A DNA stretch of 52,401 nucleotides from Escherichia phage vB_EcoM_4HA13: the sequence record NC_049466.2, one strand, 5' to 3'. The notes below the pieces were generated by a model that saw only the letters and a program-made list of their open reading frames with translations, searched no databases and had not been told where the DNA came from. Position 1 is the first letter of the stretch, and each line of letters opens with the position of its first letter. Position numbers and translations under genes: made by a program. Shown piece after piece: positions 13,472-17,040 of the stretch.

Positions 13472-13903
13472 ATGAACAAGTTAACAGCCTATAACATTGC
13501 AAAGTTGAGGTCTGAAATAAATTGGACTGTAGACAAAGATGGCTACAGGTGTGCTACTGTAAATGGGTACACAGTCAGGAGGCATATATTAAACTTTTAC
13601 ATAAAGTTTGGTTGGCTGCCTGAATATGTAGACCATATTGACAATACTCCAGGAAATGATTGGCCTGAAAACTTAAGAGCAGCAACCGCATCACAAAATG
13701 CCTGCAACTCTAAAATAAGGTCAGATAACACTAGCGGTGTTAAAGGAGTATCTTGGGATTCCTCAAGAAACAGATGGAGAGCAAGAGTAAAGGTCAATGG
13801 CCAAACTCAATCAGTGGGAAGATTTGAGACAATCGAAGAAGCCACAGAAGCTATCCATTCTGCAAGAAAGGTTCTACACAAACATTTTGCCCGCTGTGAT
13901 TAA
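13472..13903 (+). CDS. Free-standing HNH homing endonuclease with AP2-like DNA-binding domain
   Basis: HNH core VDHIDNTPGNDWPENL...SQNACN; AP2-like GVKGVSWDSSRNRWRARVKVNG; codon usage is AT-rich compared with neighbours. Confidence 0.65.
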   Translation: MNKLTAYNIAKLRSEINWTVDKDGYRCATVNGYTVRRHILNFYIKFGWLPEYVDHIDNTPGNDWPENLRAATASQNACNSKIRSDNTSGVKGVSWDSSRNRWRARVKVNGQTQSVGRFETIEEATEAIHSARKVLHKHFARCD

Positions 13904-14015: not shown

Positions 14016-14312
14016 ATGAAAGTTGTAGACGATAACAAAGTTGACAAGGTTGACGTTTTAAGCATTGCTTTGGGTGATTGTTTCGAAGCCAACGATATGG
14101 TATTTCTGCGTATTGTGGAAGTTGAAATGATGCATCTGACAGACGGTGTAACATTGCGCAATGTTGTTGGAACTCGAGTGGAAGATGGAACATATTTCTG
14201 CATTCCTGACTACACTCCAGAATCAGTAAATTCAAGAATGGTTAAACCAGTGTGCGCCAACGTGGTAATTACTGGTAATCCTAAACTTGTGGATTTGACA
14301 AAGGTCGAGTAA
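14016..14312 (+). CDS. Hypothetical protein
   Basis: GGAGAAG RBS. Confidence 0.5.
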   Translation: MKVVDDNKVDKVDVLSIALGDCFEANDMVFLRIVEVEMMHLTDGVTLRNVVGTRVEDGTYFCIPDYTPESVNSRMVKPVCANVVITGNPKLVDLTKVE

Positions 14313-14444
14313 GCAAGTTGCCTGAGAAATAGGATATTCTGGACCATCAATCCGCTGGCAATACAGGCACTTAATAAGTGTGTCTATCCTAATTCTACAA
14401 GCCTCGCAGTTTTCAGTCTGCGATATCAAAACTGTCCAAACAAC

Positions 14445-14545
14445 GTCTGCTGGACTCCGAATTGTAGCGGAGGTATTGGGTACGTCCATCTGCCTCGCAG
14501 ACAATACCAATATGTCACCGGGTTCAAGTCCCGGAGCAGGCACCA
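14445..14545 (+). ncRNA. tRNA-like element (acceptor stem, T-arm, encoded ACCA); not a canonical cloverleaf by eye
   Basis: GTCTGCT pairs with AGCAGGC; T-arm CCGGG-TTCAAGT-CCCGG; ends ...AGCAGGC-A-CCA. The region between D-arm and T-arm is about 45 nt, too long for a standard tRNA. Confidence 0.3.
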
Positions 14546-14748
14546 AACAATAGGGATTTCCATGTATGCTGTCAAATGTTGCAACGTTTCTGACAGTGGT
14601 AAGATGGCCTCAGAAAGAAAGTATAAGTATGCAGAACGGTTCGATTCCGTGAATCCCTCCAAATTAGGTGCAGTACCTGTTACGACGACAAGCTCAGATA
14701 ACGCAAAAGGTTCGTATCACACTGCACCATTCTATTACAGGAATTACA

Positions 14749-15003
14749 ATGAGCATTAAATCAATTTTAGTTGGTATTGGTGCATTCATTGCACTTCTGT
14801 TTGCAGCATTCTTCAAGGGACGTTCCAGCGGAAAGCAGGAAGTTCAACGAGAAGTTGTCAAAGAGCAAACGAAAGCTGTTGAGGAGGTTGCTCAAGAGCG
14901 AGTAGAAAATGTTAGGGTGGCTAACCGTGTTCTACAAGAAGTTGTTATATCTAGCGATACAAAAGTTGATAAGGAACTCAACGACGAGTGGACGAGAGGA
15001 TGA
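14749..15003 (+). CDS. i-spanin (Rz-like)
   Basis: N-terminal TM helix then a charged coiled-coil-like region; directly followed by a lipoprotein gene. Confidence 0.5.
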   Translation: MSIKSILVGIGAFIALLFAAFFKGRSSGKQEVQREVVKEQTKAVEEVAQERVENVRVANRVLQEVVISSDTKVDKELNDEWTRG

Positions 15004-15233: not shown

Positions 15234-16117
15234 TGACGTCAACAAATGGTATCAGCTAGACGGTGGTGTAAAAGACTGACCGTGGCGACGACGCCATATT
15301 GCTCTGGGCATAACAGTTGAAATTGCTGCCTCCTAGGATTGGAACGTCCCGCTACACATCGTTAGGGTGAGAAGGTTAGTCCACCGATACAAAGGCTTGC
15401 GGCTTACACCGGCCAAAGAAGAAAACGGTGTGCTTGAGAACGAAGCTCCGATGACCCCGTAAAGTCAACGTAATGAACACGAGACGTTCAGGTGTCCTCT
15501 TCCTAAAACAGAACGACGAGAACAAACTCGTAATCAGTTGCGGCAACGTGGTCCGGTCAAAGAACAATGAGCCACAGGTTTCCAAGCATCCGTAAAAGCA
15601 TGGCGTAGTTGACGCGTTAAGCACGAATAGCCCACGTTACGGGCCACAGAATTTGGAACTTGGTATCTGTAATGCGTCGTATTACGAATCATGAAAGCCG
15701 CACATAAGAGTGTGTAGACACATGGACTTAATAGAGGCAGATAAAATAACCAAGTTCCATACCGAAAACCTCCTGCTGGTTATTCTTCCAGATTAATAAA
15801 AGAAATAAGAAGCGTCTGGCATAGTGTAGCGATACACCTTAGTTGCGCTGATTGTGAAGTGTCGAAAAGGTTTCGGCCTGTTTGGGTTTCTCCTCATCCC
15901 GAAGTTTGAGTAATCGACTACTCAATGTTCCTAATCACATGAAATATGCAAGGCAGGGTTCTTGATAAAGTTTACTAATTCTTTATCAGGCGGGTTTAGC
16001 GATTTTCCCGGAAGGTCTCCCATAATGCGGAATTGTATATTGACTAAGCCGAAATAAATATACTCAGTTTCCAGTCTGAACAAAACTGGAATCAAATTAA
16101 CTTTAACTGGAGTTGTT

Positions 16118-16422: not shown

Positions 16423-17040
16423 ATGGGTTCGGACTTAACAGCAGTTAATGCTGCACGAGTCTCTTATGGTGCGGAGTCTAAAACGCTAACAAAACGCGAC
16501 TCCCACCTTCTGTCGTTTCTGGCAGAACATGAGCACGTAACACCTTTCCGCCACGCAGCAGTAACATTACGCTGCAAAGCGCCAATCTTCTTGGCGCGAC
16601 AATTGGGCAAGCATCAGGTTGGCTTTAGTTGGAACGAGATTTCTCGCCGCTATAAAGATGGTGATGCAATCGAAGTTGAATGCTACGTTCCTGAGTATGT
16701 TATGGCACGTCCTGATAAACTTATGACTCAGTGTGCAAGACATATGCCAGCAGATATTGCCGACGAAATGCGCATGTATATAAACAATGCTGCTAAGTCA
16801 GCAGTTCGCGAATATCAGGCATTAATTGGATTTGGAGTTGCACCAGAGCAAGCTAGAATGGTGTTACCTCAATCAATGATGACTGAATGGATTTGGACTG
16901 GCTCTCTCTATGGTTGGGCATCCATGTACAATCAGCGTTCCACTGAACACGCTCAATATGAAGCTCGCCTGTTTGCAGAAGAAGTTTCAAAAGTCATGTC
17001 AGAACTTTTCCCAATTTGCTGGGCGGAGTTGATTAAATAA
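16423..17040 (+). CDS. thyX: ThyX-like flavin-dependent thymidylate synthase (tentative)
   Basis: N-terminal AARVSYG and an ...S-x-NE-x-S-RRY segment resemble ThyX motifs; the canonical RHR is not intact. Confidence 0.5.
   Translation: MGSDLTAVNAARVSYGAESKTLTKRDSHLLSFLAEHEHVTPFRHAAVTLRCKAPIFLARQLGKHQVGFSWNEISRRYKDGDAIEVECYVPEYVMARPDKLMTQCARHMPADIADEMRMYINNAAKSAVREYQALIGFGVAPEQARMVLPQSMMTEWIWTGSLYGWASMYNQRSTEHAQYEARLFAEEVSKVMSELFPICWAELIK

What the first reader, a model, noticed from the sequence alone, without database searches (positions are those of the whole stretch)
14445..14545. tRNA-like element with canonical T-arm and encoded CCA
The segment ends ...CCGGG-TTCAAGT-CCCGG-AGCAGGC-A-CCA, which is a textbook T-arm, 3' acceptor strand, discriminator and CCA. 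GTCTGCT about 90 nt upstream can pair with the acceptor strand. The interior is about 20 nt too long for a standard tRNA and I could not fold a clean anticodon arm by eye, so it may be an atypical tRNA, a tRNA with an insertion, or a tRNA-like decoy.
Basis: seen in the sequence. Interest (0 to 1): 0.5.

Follow-up and report, generated by a model that had tools for sequence, protein, structure and literature searches.

The report
Anticodon-less tRNA-like RNA gene in phage
A phage of the Chaseviridae family carries a conserved 101-base gene that folds like a tRNA but has a variable hairpin where the anticodon should be, so it almost certainly cannot decode; it appears to be a small tRNA-mimic RNA of unknown role, the first of three such units in a row.

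Summary
Window 14445-14545 (+) has a 7-bp acceptor stem, a canonical T arm (14518-14534), discriminator A and an encoded CCA.

It is not a standard tRNA:
- ARAGORN finds nothing, even at 60-80% thresholds or with introns allowed.
- Rfam finds no tRNA or tmRNA match; only the T arm scores, weakly.

Four homologues share the same cloverleaf: this window, Erwinia phage Faunus, Pectobacterium phage PP101 and one metagenome contig. All 22 shared base pairs pair in all four.
- The body is 97% identical between window and Faunus, while neighbouring genes are 57-81% identical.
- The anticodon-like stem is capped by a 27-38 nt insert that is unrelated between lineages. There is no 7-nt anticodon loop.
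- The D arm is atypical.

The element is the first of three modules (E2 at 14553-14661, E3 at 14667-14728). They lie between a family-wide conserved leader hairpin and the spanin gene. Relatives carry other tRNA-like modules, an oversized "tRNA-Arg", or nothing in this slot.

Best reading: a selected, non-decoding, tRNA-derived small RNA cut out by host tRNA-processing enzymes. Its trans function is inferred only. The closest known analogue is T4 RNAC, whose role is also unknown. I rate it a new variant of a known kind, of moderate interest.

The parts
14393..14444 (+). Conserved leader. It contains the hairpin UCGCAG(14404-14409)-loop-CUGCGA(14418-14423) and ends in U-CCA-AACAAC directly before E1.
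   Evidence: Unique in the window. It is 94% identical to Faunus and 88% to PP101, while the intergenic DNA just upstream is 57% identical. The motif CCTCGCAG-loop-CTGCG..A.CAAAAC is present in all 16 Cleopatravirinae loci examined, with loop lengths of 8 to 14 nt. It folds as a 6-bp hairpin, z = -2.5.
14445..14451 (+). E1 acceptor stem, 5' strand (GUCUGCU).
   Evidence: Pairs with 14535-14541. PP101 has GUCUGCG/CGCAGAC, a compensatory U-A to G-C change at pair 7-66. Pair 2-71 is U.G in the window and U-A elsewhere.
14455..14472 (+). E1 D-like arm: 5-bp stem CUCCG/CGGAG with the 8-nt loop AAUUGUAG, preceded by the 3-nt linker GGA.
   Evidence: Invariant in all four homologues, loop included. 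There is no GG in the loop. Even with a grafted anticodon loop, ARAGORN accepts the body only at its 80% threshold.
14473..14513 (+). E1 anticodon-like arm. The conserved stem is GUAUU (14473-14477) with AAUAU (14509-14513). It encloses a 31-nt lineage-specific insert (14478-14508), which includes the GG/CC extension of the stem and an apical hairpin UCUGC-CUC-GCAGA (14489-14501).
   Evidence: The stem pairs in all four homologues; the pair 14477-14509 is U-A in window and Faunus and U.G in PP101 and L020. The insert is unrelated in sequence in PP101 and in L020. In L020 it forms a long hairpin capped by a UUCG tetraloop, and the centroid equals the MFE. No 7-nt anticodon loop is present.
14514..14517 (+). 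E1 variable-loop equivalent (GUCA).
   Evidence: Invariant in the four homologues.
14518..14534 (+). E1 T arm: CCGGG UUCAAGU CCCGG.
   Evidence: This is the only part that matches any Rfam model: the T-arm portion of the mascRNA model, 15.3 bits against a gathering score of 42.5. It is conserved in the homologues. PP101 has a C-G to U.G change in the stem. PP101 and L020 have a C-to-A change at T-loop position 56.
14535..14545 (+). E1 acceptor 3' strand AGCAGGC, discriminator A (14542) and encoded CCA (14543-14545). It is followed by the A-rich spacer AACAAUA.
   Evidence: A-C-C is conserved in all four homologues. The last base is A in the window and PP101, T in Faunus and C in L020.
14553..14661 (+). 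E2, the second tRNA-like module (109 nt). Acceptor GGGAUUU/GAAUCCC. D stem CCAU/AUGG, whose loop carries an inserted hairpin. No anticodon arm. T arm ACGG UUCGAUU CCGU (14636-14650). Then U and CCA (14659-14661).
   Evidence: Its homologue is Faunus L001:1836-1944, 73% identical. 27 consensus pairs, 5 of them with changes on both sides. No other homologue in IMG/VR: the other 9 pattern hits are chance matches.
14667..14728 (+). E3, the third module: a hairpin closed by the 8-bp stem GGUGCAGU/ACUGCACC. It has no T loop and no clean CCA. The spanin ribosome-binding site and start codon (14749) follow.
   Evidence: MFE equals centroid at -20.1 kcal/mol, z = -3.0. The downstream ORF 14749-15003 matches Rz-like spanin phrog_1026 at E = 8.5e-19.

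Best explanation
E1 (14445-14545, + strand) is a tRNA-derived small RNA gene that does not decode.

Shown:
- It has a full tRNA 'top half': a 7-bp acceptor stem plus a 5-bp T stem, a canonical T loop, A73 and CCA.
- It has an atypical but invariant D-like hairpin.
- It has a 5-bp anticodon-like stem capped by a lineage-specific 27-38 nt hairpin insert instead of a 7-nt anticodon loop.
- Its body is held nearly constant in phages whose genes have diverged to 57-81% identity.
- It is the first of three tandem tRNA-like modules. They lie between a family-wide conserved leader hairpin and the spanin gene, on the strand of every flanking gene examined.

Inferred:
- The array is transcribed as part of the rightward polycistronic RNA.
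- Each module is cut out like a pre-tRNA. RNase P would cut 5' of G14445, using the G1-C72 pair, the 12-bp acceptor/T stack and ACCA. RNase E and 3' exonucleases would trim in the A-rich spacer after CCA. The host CCA-adding enzyme would repair ends such as the ACCT of Faunus.
- This would release a stable RNA of about 100 nt.

Most likely role (inferred, not shown): a trans-acting tRNA mimic. It would engage a host or phage factor that recognises the tRNA body or 3' end, acting as a decoy or sponge, or it would serve as a scaffold that displays the variable hairpin.

A side effect, or second role, would be to punctuate the mRNA just upstream of the lysis genes.
For: Structure:
- Cloverleaf MFE in the window, in Faunus and PP101 and in metagenome L020, where centroid equals MFE and z = -3.0.
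- All 22 shared pairs form in 4 of 4 sequences. All 5 varying stem positions keep pairing: 1 double change and 3 wobble changes.
- The U.G pairs exist only on the + strand RNA.

Selection:
- Window versus Faunus: E1 97%, leader 94%, neighbouring CDS 81%, spanin 64%, upstream intergenic DNA 57%.
- Window versus PP101: E1 5' block 33/34 identical, against 69% and 57% for the CDSs.
- The D-like loop and the GUCA loop are invariant.

Not a decoder:
-.
- The inserts are unrelated and carry no shared anticodon.

Not coding:
- Overlapping ORFs have different extents in the window, PP101 and L020 and match no family.
- Insert lengths differ by amounts that are not multiples of three.

Array context:
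- The T-loop motif occurs only twice in the window, both times here.
- E2 has 5 compensatory pairs against Faunus.
- Relatives carry different NCCA-terminated modules in the same slot.

Precedent:
- T4 RNAC (139 nt) ends in the T arm CCGGGUUCGAAUCCCGG followed by a closing stem, and lies just 3' of tRNA-Arg and RNAD at the end of the T4 tRNA cluster.
- It is a stable late RNA of unknown role (PMC3014915, PMC9697503).

Processing:
- RNase E cutting 1-3 nt after an encoded CCA, followed by RNase P, is the E. coli model for polycistronic tRNA precursors (abstract of PMC2190699).
Against: - There is no expression or processing data for any member. No promoter or terminator was identified on the + strand near the element.
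- The homologue set is very small: 4 distinct sequences and only 1 double compensatory change. The shuffle control is not significant (127 of 500).
- The encoded CCA is not conserved.
- T-loop C56 becomes A in two homologues while the D loop stays invariant, so a canonical tRNA elbow is doubtful.
- The slot is empty in Yersinia phage PYps3T and holds an unrelated hairpin in BSBP01. The RNAs are therefore dispensable for the phage family.
- No partner, target or complementary site was found. Only chance-level 10-11-mers occur in the phage genome.
Confidence: 0.5

Rival explanations
1. Purely cis-acting processing signal. The modules would be mRNA punctuation, like the tRNA-like t-elements of plant mitochondria. 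RNase P and RNase E cleavage at the modules would define the 5' end and stability of the downstream spanin/lysis mRNA. The excised RNA itself would have no function.
For: - The array sits immediately upstream of the spanin start and downstream of a conserved leader.
- In E2 only the acceptor, T arm and D stem are conserved, while the anticodon region is degenerate.
- Every module ends near an NCCA followed by an A-rich spacer.
- t-elements are a documented precedent for end formation (PMC1920247).
Against: - RNase P recognition does not need the D arm (established knowledge). Yet E1's D-like loop AAUUGUAG and its GUCA loop are invariant across four lineages.
- One module would suffice, but two to five occur in tandem.
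- The phages PYps3T and BSBP01 do without any module upstream of the same downstream genes.
Confidence: 0.2
2. Decaying tRNA pseudogene. E1 would be a relic of a once-functional phage tRNA in a hot spot of tRNA gain and loss, with no present function.
For: - The slot shows rapid turnover. It holds a 95-nt 'tRNA-Arg' in ST32/GJ1, other modules in PM1, phiA050 and Aioli, and nothing in PYps3T.
- The anticodon region is destroyed, the D arm is atypical and the CCA is not conserved.
Against: - The body is far more conserved than the neighbouring protein-coding genes: 97% against 57-81%.
- Every stem substitution preserves pairing.
- A neutral relic would not keep 33 of 34 bases between phages that are 57-69% identical in the flanking genes.
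Confidence: 0.12
3. A genuine decoding tRNA with an unusual anticodon arm, or a tRNA whose insert is removed as an intron to restore an anticodon loop.
For: - The overall cloverleaf geometry, A73 and CCA are present.
- With a 7-nt loop grafted in silico onto the conserved 5-bp stem, ARAGORN calls a tRNA at its 80% threshold.
- GJ1's oversized tRNA at the same locus is annotated 'may contain an intron'.
Against: - No tRNA call at any threshold or with introns allowed. No Rfam tRNA or group I intron match.
- The three insert types share no anticodon triplet, no U33/R37 context and no common splice-like boundary.
- At 27-38 nt the insert is far too short for a group I intron. Bacteria lack the bulge-helix-bulge splicing endonuclease (established knowledge).
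- The grafted body fails at the default and 90% thresholds.
Confidence: 0.04
4. A DNA-level element rather than an RNA. Examples are a protein-binding site, a recombination or homing-endonuclease target, or part of a promoter or origin region. The fold would then be incidental.
For: - An HNH endonuclease gene lies about 540 nt upstream of E1 (13472-13903).
- Sequence, not only structure, is highly conserved.
- The promoters of the phage RNA polymerase are still unidentified in this family (PMC12842549).
Against: - The helices contain U.G pairs that would be C.A mismatches on the other strand or in DNA cruciforms. The substitutions between lineages are pair-preserving.
- The canonical T loop, A73 and CCA are RNA-level features.
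- The conserved blocks are not repeated elsewhere in the genome, as a promoter would be.
Confidence: 0.05

Closest known systems
Bacteriophage T4 RNAC (species 1 RNA, 139 nt) and RNAD (species 2 RNA, 119 nt)
   Same: - Phage-encoded and oversized relative to tRNA.
- RNAC ends in a canonical T arm (CCGGGUUCGAAUCCCGG, against CCGGGUUCAAGUCCCGG here) followed by a closing stem strand.
- The interior is not a tRNA, and there is no anticodon arm.
- They are arranged head to tail in a tRNA-type cluster.
- Their role is unknown, although they are stable late RNAs (PMC3014915, PMC9697503).
   Different: - No detectable homology beyond the T arm: the E1 model scores 11.5 bits, E = 0.88, on rnaC.
- The closing stem of T4 RNAC is weak, and no CCA is encoded at its annotated end.
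- E1 keeps a clean 7-bp acceptor stem, a D-like arm and an anticodon-like stem.
- The window has no bona fide tRNA next to the array.
Canonical bacterial/phage tRNA (Rfam RF00005; ARAGORN model)
   Same: A 7-bp acceptor stem, a 5-bp T stem with a UUCAAGU loop, discriminator A, CCA, and four-helix cloverleaf topology with a 4-nt variable loop.
   Different: - No 7-nt anticodon loop.
- The D arm has no G18G19, has a 5-bp stem and follows a 3-nt linker.
- Position 8 is G.
- It is not detected by ARAGORN or Rfam.
The oversized (95-nt) 'tRNA-Arg' of phiEcoM-GJ1, ST32 and related Carltongylesvirus phages
   Same: - Same genomic slot, directly after the same conserved leader.
- Oversized tRNA-like gene that prediction programs disagree on or miss: tRNAscan calls Arg (PMC6266442), ARAGORN calls Leu(cag), and ARAGORN makes no call in 5 of 7 variants.
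   Different: - The extra 20-21 nt lies in the D loop, and a 7-nt anticodon-type loop is retained.
- The acceptor and T-arm sequences are unrelated to those of E1.
- Homology to E1 is not demonstrable (no R1 hit).
tRNA-like processing signals and tRNA mimics: plant mitochondrial t-elements, mascRNA, the tmRNA tRNA-like domain
   Same: An acceptor/T-arm 'top half' is retained as the handle for RNase P, RNase Z or CCA-adding enzymes, while the anticodon domain is lost or replaced (PMC1920247; established knowledge for mascRNA and tmRNA).
   Different: - Different organisms and lineages.
- Rfam's mascRNA model matches only the 17-nt T arm: 15.3 bits against a gathering score of 42.5.
- ARAGORN's tmRNA mode finds nothing. 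E1 has no tag reading frame or pseudoknots.

Membership tests
tRNA (decoding) | 7-bp acceptor stem with discriminator base and a 3' CCA, encoded or added | tested here: met
   GUCUGCU/AGCAGGC, then A, then CCA. The stem pairs in all 4 homologues. The CCA is encoded in only 2 of the 4.
tRNA (decoding) | T arm: 5-bp stem and 7-nt loop U54-U55-C56-R57-A58, closed by G53-C61 | tested here: met
   CCGGG UUCAAGU CCCGG at 14518-14534. PP101 and L020 have A at position 56.
tRNA (decoding) | Anticodon arm: 5-bp stem with a 7-nt loop carrying U33, the anticodon and a purine at 37 | tested here: not met
   The stem GUAUU/AAUAU is capped by a 27-38 nt insert that differs completely between lineages. No shared triplet.
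tRNA (decoding) | D arm with U8, A14 and G18G19 to build the elbow | tested here: not met
   G is at position 8, the linker is 3 nt, and the loop AAUUGUAG has no GG. The body with a grafted anticodon loop is called only at ARAGORN's 80% threshold.
tRNA (decoding) | Recognition by tRNA gene finders or a covariance model | tested here: not met
   ARAGORN at default, -i, -ps90, -ps80 and -ps60 makes no call on the + strand at 14445-14545. Rfam shows no tRNA hit at the gathering score or at E <= 10. tRNAscan-SE was not available.
tRNA (decoding) | Aminoacylation and use on the ribosome | not testable with these tools
   Needs acid-gel or periodate assays and ribosome association experiments.
tmRNA | tRNA-like domain plus a tag reading frame and pseudoknots | tested here: not met
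   ARAGORN -m at the 70% threshold finds nothing. No Rfam tmRNA hit. The element is only 101 nt.
tRNA with a group I intron | Insertion of about 200 nt or more with a group I core in the anticodon loop | tested here: not met
   The insert is 27-38 nt. No Rfam intron match.
T4 RNAC-type phage stable tRNA-like RNA (a loose class, not a curated family) | Oversized RNA that ends in a T arm followed by a closing stem, has no anticodon arm, and is encoded in a tandem tRNA-type cluster | tested here: met
   Architecture compared directly: T4 rnaC, E1. Both lie head to tail with neighbouring units.
T4 RNAC-type phage stable tRNA-like RNA (a loose class, not a curated family) | Sequence or structure homology to T4 RNAC | tested here: not met
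   The E1 covariance model scores 11.5 bits, E = 0.88, on rnaC. The signal comes from the T arm only.
T4 RNAC-type phage stable tRNA-like RNA (a loose class, not a curated family) | Accumulates as a stable processed RNA during infection | not testable with these tools
   No transcript data were found for any Chaseviridae member. The literature searches turned up none.
RNase P substrate (pre-tRNA-like) | 12-bp coaxial acceptor/T stack, a G1-C72 pair and a 3' RCCA | tested here: met
   7 + 5 bp, G1-C72 and ACCA are read from the sequence and fold. Actual cleavage was not tested.

The most novel reading that the evidence does not exclude
E1 is a natural 'tRNA scaffold'. The ultra-conserved tRNA-like body would guarantee excision, stability and 3'-end maturation by host enzymes. 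It would display a rapidly diversifying hairpin at the position of the anticodon loop. That tip would be the business end: a decoy or aptamer for a host tRNA-targeting defence, for a toxin, or for a competitor phage's endonuclease. It would evolve in an arms race. This would explain why near-identical bodies carry unrelated tips in different phages. It would also explain why the related 95-nt tRNA of the ST32 group changes only its anticodon triplet (UCG, AAG, CGA) between near-identical genes.
Probability: 0.12. Interest if true: 0.75.

Novelty: new variant of a known kind. Interest (0 to 1): 0.45.

Why it matters
- Phage tRNA genes are now known to counter host defences that cleave tRNAs. 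tRNA-shaped RNAs that cannot decode have been unexplained since T4 RNAC and RNAD were described decades ago.
- This locus gives a compact, comparative handle on that class. It has a strongly conserved tRNA-like body with a swappable tip. It also shows natural presence/absence and tip variants in closely related, easily grown phages of Erwinia, Pectobacterium, E. coli and Yersinia.
- On the practical side, none of these elements is annotated in the public genomes. In Faunus a doubtful reverse-strand CDS is annotated over the element, so current annotations of this family are misleading here.

Tried and rejected
- **tRNA finders.** ARAGORN was run on the whole window, then locally with relaxed thresholds, intron mode and tmRNA mode. 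It gave only implausible calls: one spanning E1 to E2 with a 138-nt 'intron', and others on the reverse strand.
- **Rfam.** Searched at gathering score and at E <= 10. Only the T arm matched.
- **Descent from the ST32/GJ1 'tRNA-Arg'.** I looked for a shared origin because of local similarity (AUCUG..CAGA, AUGUC). The acceptor, T arm and D region are unrelated and the covariance model finds no link, so the question is left open.
- **Intron reading.** I tried several excision points. None gives a consistent 7-nt loop or anticodon in the three insert types.
- **Antisense targets or primer-binding sites.** I searched the phage genome for matches to E1, its D-like hairpin, its insert and its 3' end. 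Only chance-level 9-11-mers turned up.
- **Host homologue.** No blastn match in 5,426 E. coli genomes. The one GTDB hit to the 20-mer lies inside an unrelated Acidobacteria sequence without the rest of the element.
- **A sigma-70 promoter in the leader.** The scan found none on the + strand, and the hairpin loop length varies between genera.
- **The leader as a repeated phage promoter.** It is unique in the window.
- **Myduc 'CCA-adding nucleotidyltransferase'.** It is a weak, below-cutoff PolyA_pol/DUF6932 match. It sits where this window has ThyX, so it is not relevant here.
- **D loop and T loop resemblance to enterobacterial tRNA-Leu.** I recalled this from memory and did not test it. I do not rely on it.
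Full report
**1. The observation**

| Part | Sequence | Coordinates |
|---|---|---|
| Acceptor 5' strand | GTCTGCT | 14445-14451 |
| T arm | CCGGG-TTCAAGT-CCCGG | 14518-14534 |
| Acceptor 3' strand | AGCAGGC | 14535-14541 |
| Discriminator | A | 14542 |
| 3' end | CCA | 14543-14545 |

- The two acceptor strands form seven pairs, one of them U.G.
- The element is 101 nt long.
- Its minimum-free-energy RNA fold is a four-helix cloverleaf (-37 kcal/mol, z = -2.3).
- The T-loop pattern GGTTCRANTCC occurs only twice in the 52.4 kb. Both copies are on the + strand in this one intergenic region, against 0.19 expected.

**2. It is not a standard tRNA**

- ARAGORN finds no tRNA or tmRNA anywhere in the window.
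- Run locally with introns allowed and thresholds lowered to 90, 80 and 60%, ARAGORN never calls the + strand at 14445-14545. It produces only implausible calls, such as one with a 138-nt 'intron' spanning two elements, and others on the reverse strand.
- Rfam has no hit at gathering scores.
- At E <= 10 on the 461-nt region, the only Rfam match is the 17-nt T arm against the mascRNA model: 15.3 bits against a gathering score of 42.5.

The other half, whether a stable small RNA is made, cannot be tested here.

**3. Genomic context**

- The window is a Chaseviridae (Cleopatravirinae) myophage. The nearest record is Erwinia phage Faunus, at about 79% identity over the alignable parts.
- The element lies in a 437-nt gene-free stretch (14313-14748). 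Upstream are an unassigned 98-aa ORF (14016-14312) and, further up, an HNH endonuclease gene (13472-13903). Downstream is the Rz-like spanin gene, starting at 14749.
- ORFs that overlap the element match no protein family. Their extents differ between homologous loci.
- All flanking genes are on the + strand.

**4. The surroundings form an array**

| Unit | Coordinates | Description |
|---|---|---|
| Leader | 14393-14444 | Hairpin UCGCAG-loop-CUGCGA; ends in U-CCA-AACAAC |
| E1 | 14445-14545 | The finding |
| Spacer | 14546-14552 | AACAAUA |
| E2 | 14553-14661 | Acceptor GGGAUUU/GAAUCCC, T arm ACGG-UUCGAUU-CCGU, then U-CCA |
| E3 | 14667-14728 | Hairpin closed by an 8-bp stem, z = -3.0 |

- E2 has a homologue in Faunus (73% identity).
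- The E2 consensus structure has 27 pairs, 5 of them with changes on both sides. The D stem CCAU/AUGG has a loop that carries an inserted hairpin. There is no anticodon arm.

**5. The leader**

- The leader is unique in the window.
- It is present in every Cleopatravirinae locus I fetched, with hairpin loops of 8 to 14 nt.

What follows the leader differs between phages.

| Phage | What follows the leader |
|---|---|
| Faunus, PP101 | E1, then other NCCA-ended modules |
| PM1, phiA050, Aioli | Other tRNA-like modules, including ~50-nt acceptor + hairpin + T-arm 'minihelices' |
| ST32/GJ1 group | One 95-nt gene annotated 'tRNA-Arg; may contain an intron' |
| PYps3T | Nothing |
| BSBP01 | A terminator-like hairpin |

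- For the 95-nt gene, tRNAscan-SE calls Arg (PMC6266442). ARAGORN calls Leu(cag) or nothing.
- The slot is a hot spot for turnover of tRNA-derived genes. Apart from GJ1-type tRNA-Arg features, no module in this slot is annotated in the records I examined.

**6. Homologues of E1**

I found four distinct sequences.

| Source | Coordinates | 3' end |
|---|---|---|
| Window | 14445-14545 | ACCA |
| Faunus | L001:1553-1653 | ACCT |
| PP101 (also Dickeya phage Okapia) | L002:1548-1649 | ACCA |
| Metagenome contig Ga0308160_10098972 | L020:722-829, minus strand | ACCC |

- The first 34 nt are identical in all four apart from one acceptor base. This block is the acceptor 5' strand, the GGA linker, the hairpin CUCCG-AAUUGUAG-CGGAG and GUAUUG.
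- The last ~40 nt are nearly identical. This block is (A/G)AUAUGUCA, the T arm, the acceptor 3' strand and ACC.
- Between the two blocks lies an insert of 27-38 nt that is unrelated in sequence between window/Faunus, PP101 and L020.
  - In window and Faunus it contains the hairpin UCUGC-CUC-GCAGA.
  - In L020 it is a long helix capped by a UUCG tetraloop. The whole L020 molecule folds as a clean cloverleaf whose centroid equals the MFE (z = -3.0).
- A common structure of 22 pairs (acceptor 7, D-like 5, anticodon-like 5, T 5) is fully paired in all four sequences: 88 of 88 cells, against 36-53% when the partners are slid.
- All five variable stem positions keep pairing: one double change, U-A to G-C, and three wobble changes.
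- With four sequences the shuffle control is not significant (127 of 500).
- The U.G pairs exist only on the + strand RNA.

**7. Selection**

| Comparison | Region | Identity |
|---|---|---|
| Window vs Faunus | E1 | 97% |
| Window vs Faunus | Leader | 94% |
| Window vs Faunus | Neighbouring conserved CDS | 81% |
| Window vs Faunus | Spanin gene | 64% |
| Window vs Faunus | Intergenic DNA just upstream | 57% |
| Window vs PP101 | E1 5' block | 33/34 |
| Window vs PP101 | E1 3' block | 32/36 |
| Window vs PP101 | The two CDSs | 69% and 57% |

- The body, including the D-like loop and the GUCA loop, is therefore under much stronger constraint than the surrounding genes. The tip of the anticodon-like arm is free or diversifying.
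- Recent transfer alone cannot explain this, because the tips differ.

**8. How tRNA-like is the body?**

- I replaced the insert in silico with canonical 7-nt anticodon loops on the conserved 5-bp stem. ARAGORN still rejects the construct at the default and 90% thresholds. It accepts it only at 80%, with a poor D arm.
- The D-like arm has a 3-nt linker, G at position 8, a 5-bp stem and no GG in its loop.
- T-loop C56 is A in PP101 and L020 while the D loop stays invariant. A canonical elbow is therefore doubtful.
- The 'top half' does satisfy the known minimal features of a bacterial RNase P substrate: a 12-bp acceptor/T stack, G1-C72 and ACCA. This is read from the sequence against established knowledge; cleavage was not tested.
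- The A-rich spacer after CCA matches the E. coli model of RNase E cleavage 1-3 nt after an encoded CCA (abstract of PMC2190699).

**9. Other tests**

- A covariance model of E1 finds no further copy in the window or in 19 other loci.
- Outside the training set it gives only weak hits: the phiA050 minihelix and a tRNA in L020 (19 bits each), Faunus module 2 (14.6 bits), and T4 rnaC (11.5 bits, E = 0.88). None of T4's eight true tRNAs is hit.
- E1 has no significant sense or antisense match elsewhere in the phage genome.
- It has no match in E. coli genomes.
- IMG/VR holds only the Faunus copy.

**10. Interpretation**

*Shown:*
- A conserved, structured, strand-specific, non-coding element.
- It has a tRNA top half, an atypical D-like hairpin, and a variable hairpin in place of the anticodon loop.
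- It is unit 1 of a tandem array downstream of a family-wide leader.

*Inferred:*
- It is transcribed with the rightward genes, excised by RNase P and by 3' trimming or CCA repair, and accumulates as an RNA of about 100 nt that cannot decode.
- I commit to a trans-acting tRNA mimic (decoy, sponge or display scaffold) as the most likely role. My reason is that the invariant loops imply a specific partner.
- mRNA punctuation upstream of the lysis genes is a likely by-product, and the main rival.

*Less likely:*
- A neutral pseudogene is hard to reconcile with the conservation.
- A decoding or spliced tRNA is hard to reconcile with the unrelated inserts.

**11. Comparison with what is known**

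- The closest analogue is T4 RNAC. It is a 139-nt stable late RNA that lies 3' of RNAD and tRNA-Arg in the T4 tRNA cluster. It ends in an almost identical T arm followed by a closing stem. Its role, like that of RNAD, is still unknown (PMC3014915, PMC9697503).
- There is no homology to RNAC beyond the T arm.
- Plant mitochondrial t-elements (PMC1920247), mascRNA and the tmRNA tRNA-like domain are functional analogies only.
- E1 fails the defining tests for tRNA, tmRNA and intron-containing tRNA.
- I rate it a new variant of a known kind: a phage tRNA-like RNA. It is unannotated and has no Rfam family.
- Its notable feature is a conserved scaffold carrying a hypervariable tip.
- Interest is moderate. 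The element is real and selected, but its function is unproven and the family is so far small.

Noticed in passing
window 14393-14444; also L001:1501-1552, L002:1496-1547, L003, L004, L005:2170-2212, L009, L010-L018: A leader of about 50 nt is the most conserved non-coding element of this phage subfamily. Its motif is CCTCGCAG-loop-CTGCG..A.CAAAAC, and the hairpin loop is 8-14 nt long. It occurs once per genome and is always followed by the tRNA-like slot and the small-protein/spanin genes. It persists even where the tRNA-like genes are absent (PYps3T). Its function is unknown. It is not a recognisable sigma-70 promoter and is not repeated like a phage promoter.
   Followed up: partly
window 14553-14661 (E2); Faunus L001:1836-1944: A second tRNA-like module. 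It has an acceptor stem, a 4-bp T arm with the loop UUCGAUU, then U-CCA. Its D stem CCAU/AUGG has a loop carrying an inserted hairpin, and there is no anticodon arm. Five pairs show compensatory changes against Faunus.
   Followed up: yes
window 14667-14728 (E3): A third module: a hairpin of about 62 nt closed by the 8-bp stem GGUGCAGU/ACUGCACC. It lies directly before the spanin ribosome-binding site. It has no T loop, and no clear homologue was found.
   Followed up: partly
L005:2227-2321 (ST32), L011:662-756 (GJ1), and L012-L016: The 95-nt 'tRNA-Arg' of the ST32/GJ1 group carries a 20-21 nt insertion in its D loop. Among otherwise near-identical genes the anticodon-position triplet changes: UCG in most, AAG in PYps16N and CGA in TH29. 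U33 and A37 are kept. ARAGORN calls only 2 of the 7 variants, and calls them Leu(cag). tRNAscan calls Arg. Most records leave the gene unannotated.
   Followed up: partly
window 15234-16117: A stretch of about 880 nt after the spanin genes has no plausible + strand ORF. It contains blocks conserved with distant relatives: 15295-15332 is 95% identical to ST32, 15807-15963 is 79% identical to ST32, and 15937-15967 is 91% identical to Aioli. The stretch begins near a shared AACTTACCCGACAA motif. In PM1, Myduc, Aioli and L020 the equivalent region holds a tRNA or a tRNA-like element. There is no Rfam match. It could be an origin or further non-coding RNAs.
   Followed up: partly
L004:1673-1720 (phiA050); L010:1553-1604 approx. 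(Aioli): tRNA-like 'minihelices' of about 50 nt. Each has a 7-bp acceptor stem, a 5-bp hairpin with a UGGU loop, and a short T arm (GGG-UUCGAUU-CCC). In Aioli the unit sits directly after the leader. In phiA050 it follows a first module of about 130 nt.
   Followed up: no
L001:1397-1651, minus strand (Faunus gp30, YP_009802123.1): An annotated hypothetical CDS on the reverse strand covers the leader and E1 in Faunus. It is probably a spurious call. The corresponding ORFs in the window, PP101 and L020 have different ends and match no family.
   Followed up: partly
L002:1774-1862 and L003:~1785-1875 (last module of PP101 and PM1): This module contains an internal direct repeat, GTGCAAATGTCA(A/G)TCAC, present twice. 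It is closed by GGGC.../...GCCC-A-CCA. Aioli has a related GTGCATTGTCAATGTCAGTCAC. It may be a protein-binding site.
   Followed up: no
L022:17373-17942 (Proteus phage Myduc gp77): This gene is annotated as a CCA-adding nucleotidyltransferase and sits where this window has ThyX (16423-17040). Pfam gives only DUF6932 (30 bits) and a below-cutoff PolyA_pol head domain (20 bits against a cutoff of 23), so the CCA-adding annotation is weakly founded.
   Followed up: partly
window 14489-14501 compared with 14416-14423 and with 14445-14450/14536-14541: The apical hairpin of the window/Faunus insert (AUCUGC-CUC-GCAGAC) repeats the two acceptor strands (GUCUGC/GCAGAC). It is also complementary over 8 bp to the 3' strand of the leader hairpin (GUCUGCGA). 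This could allow alternative pairings, or it could be a trace of how the insert arose. It is not seen in PP101 or L020.
   Followed up: no
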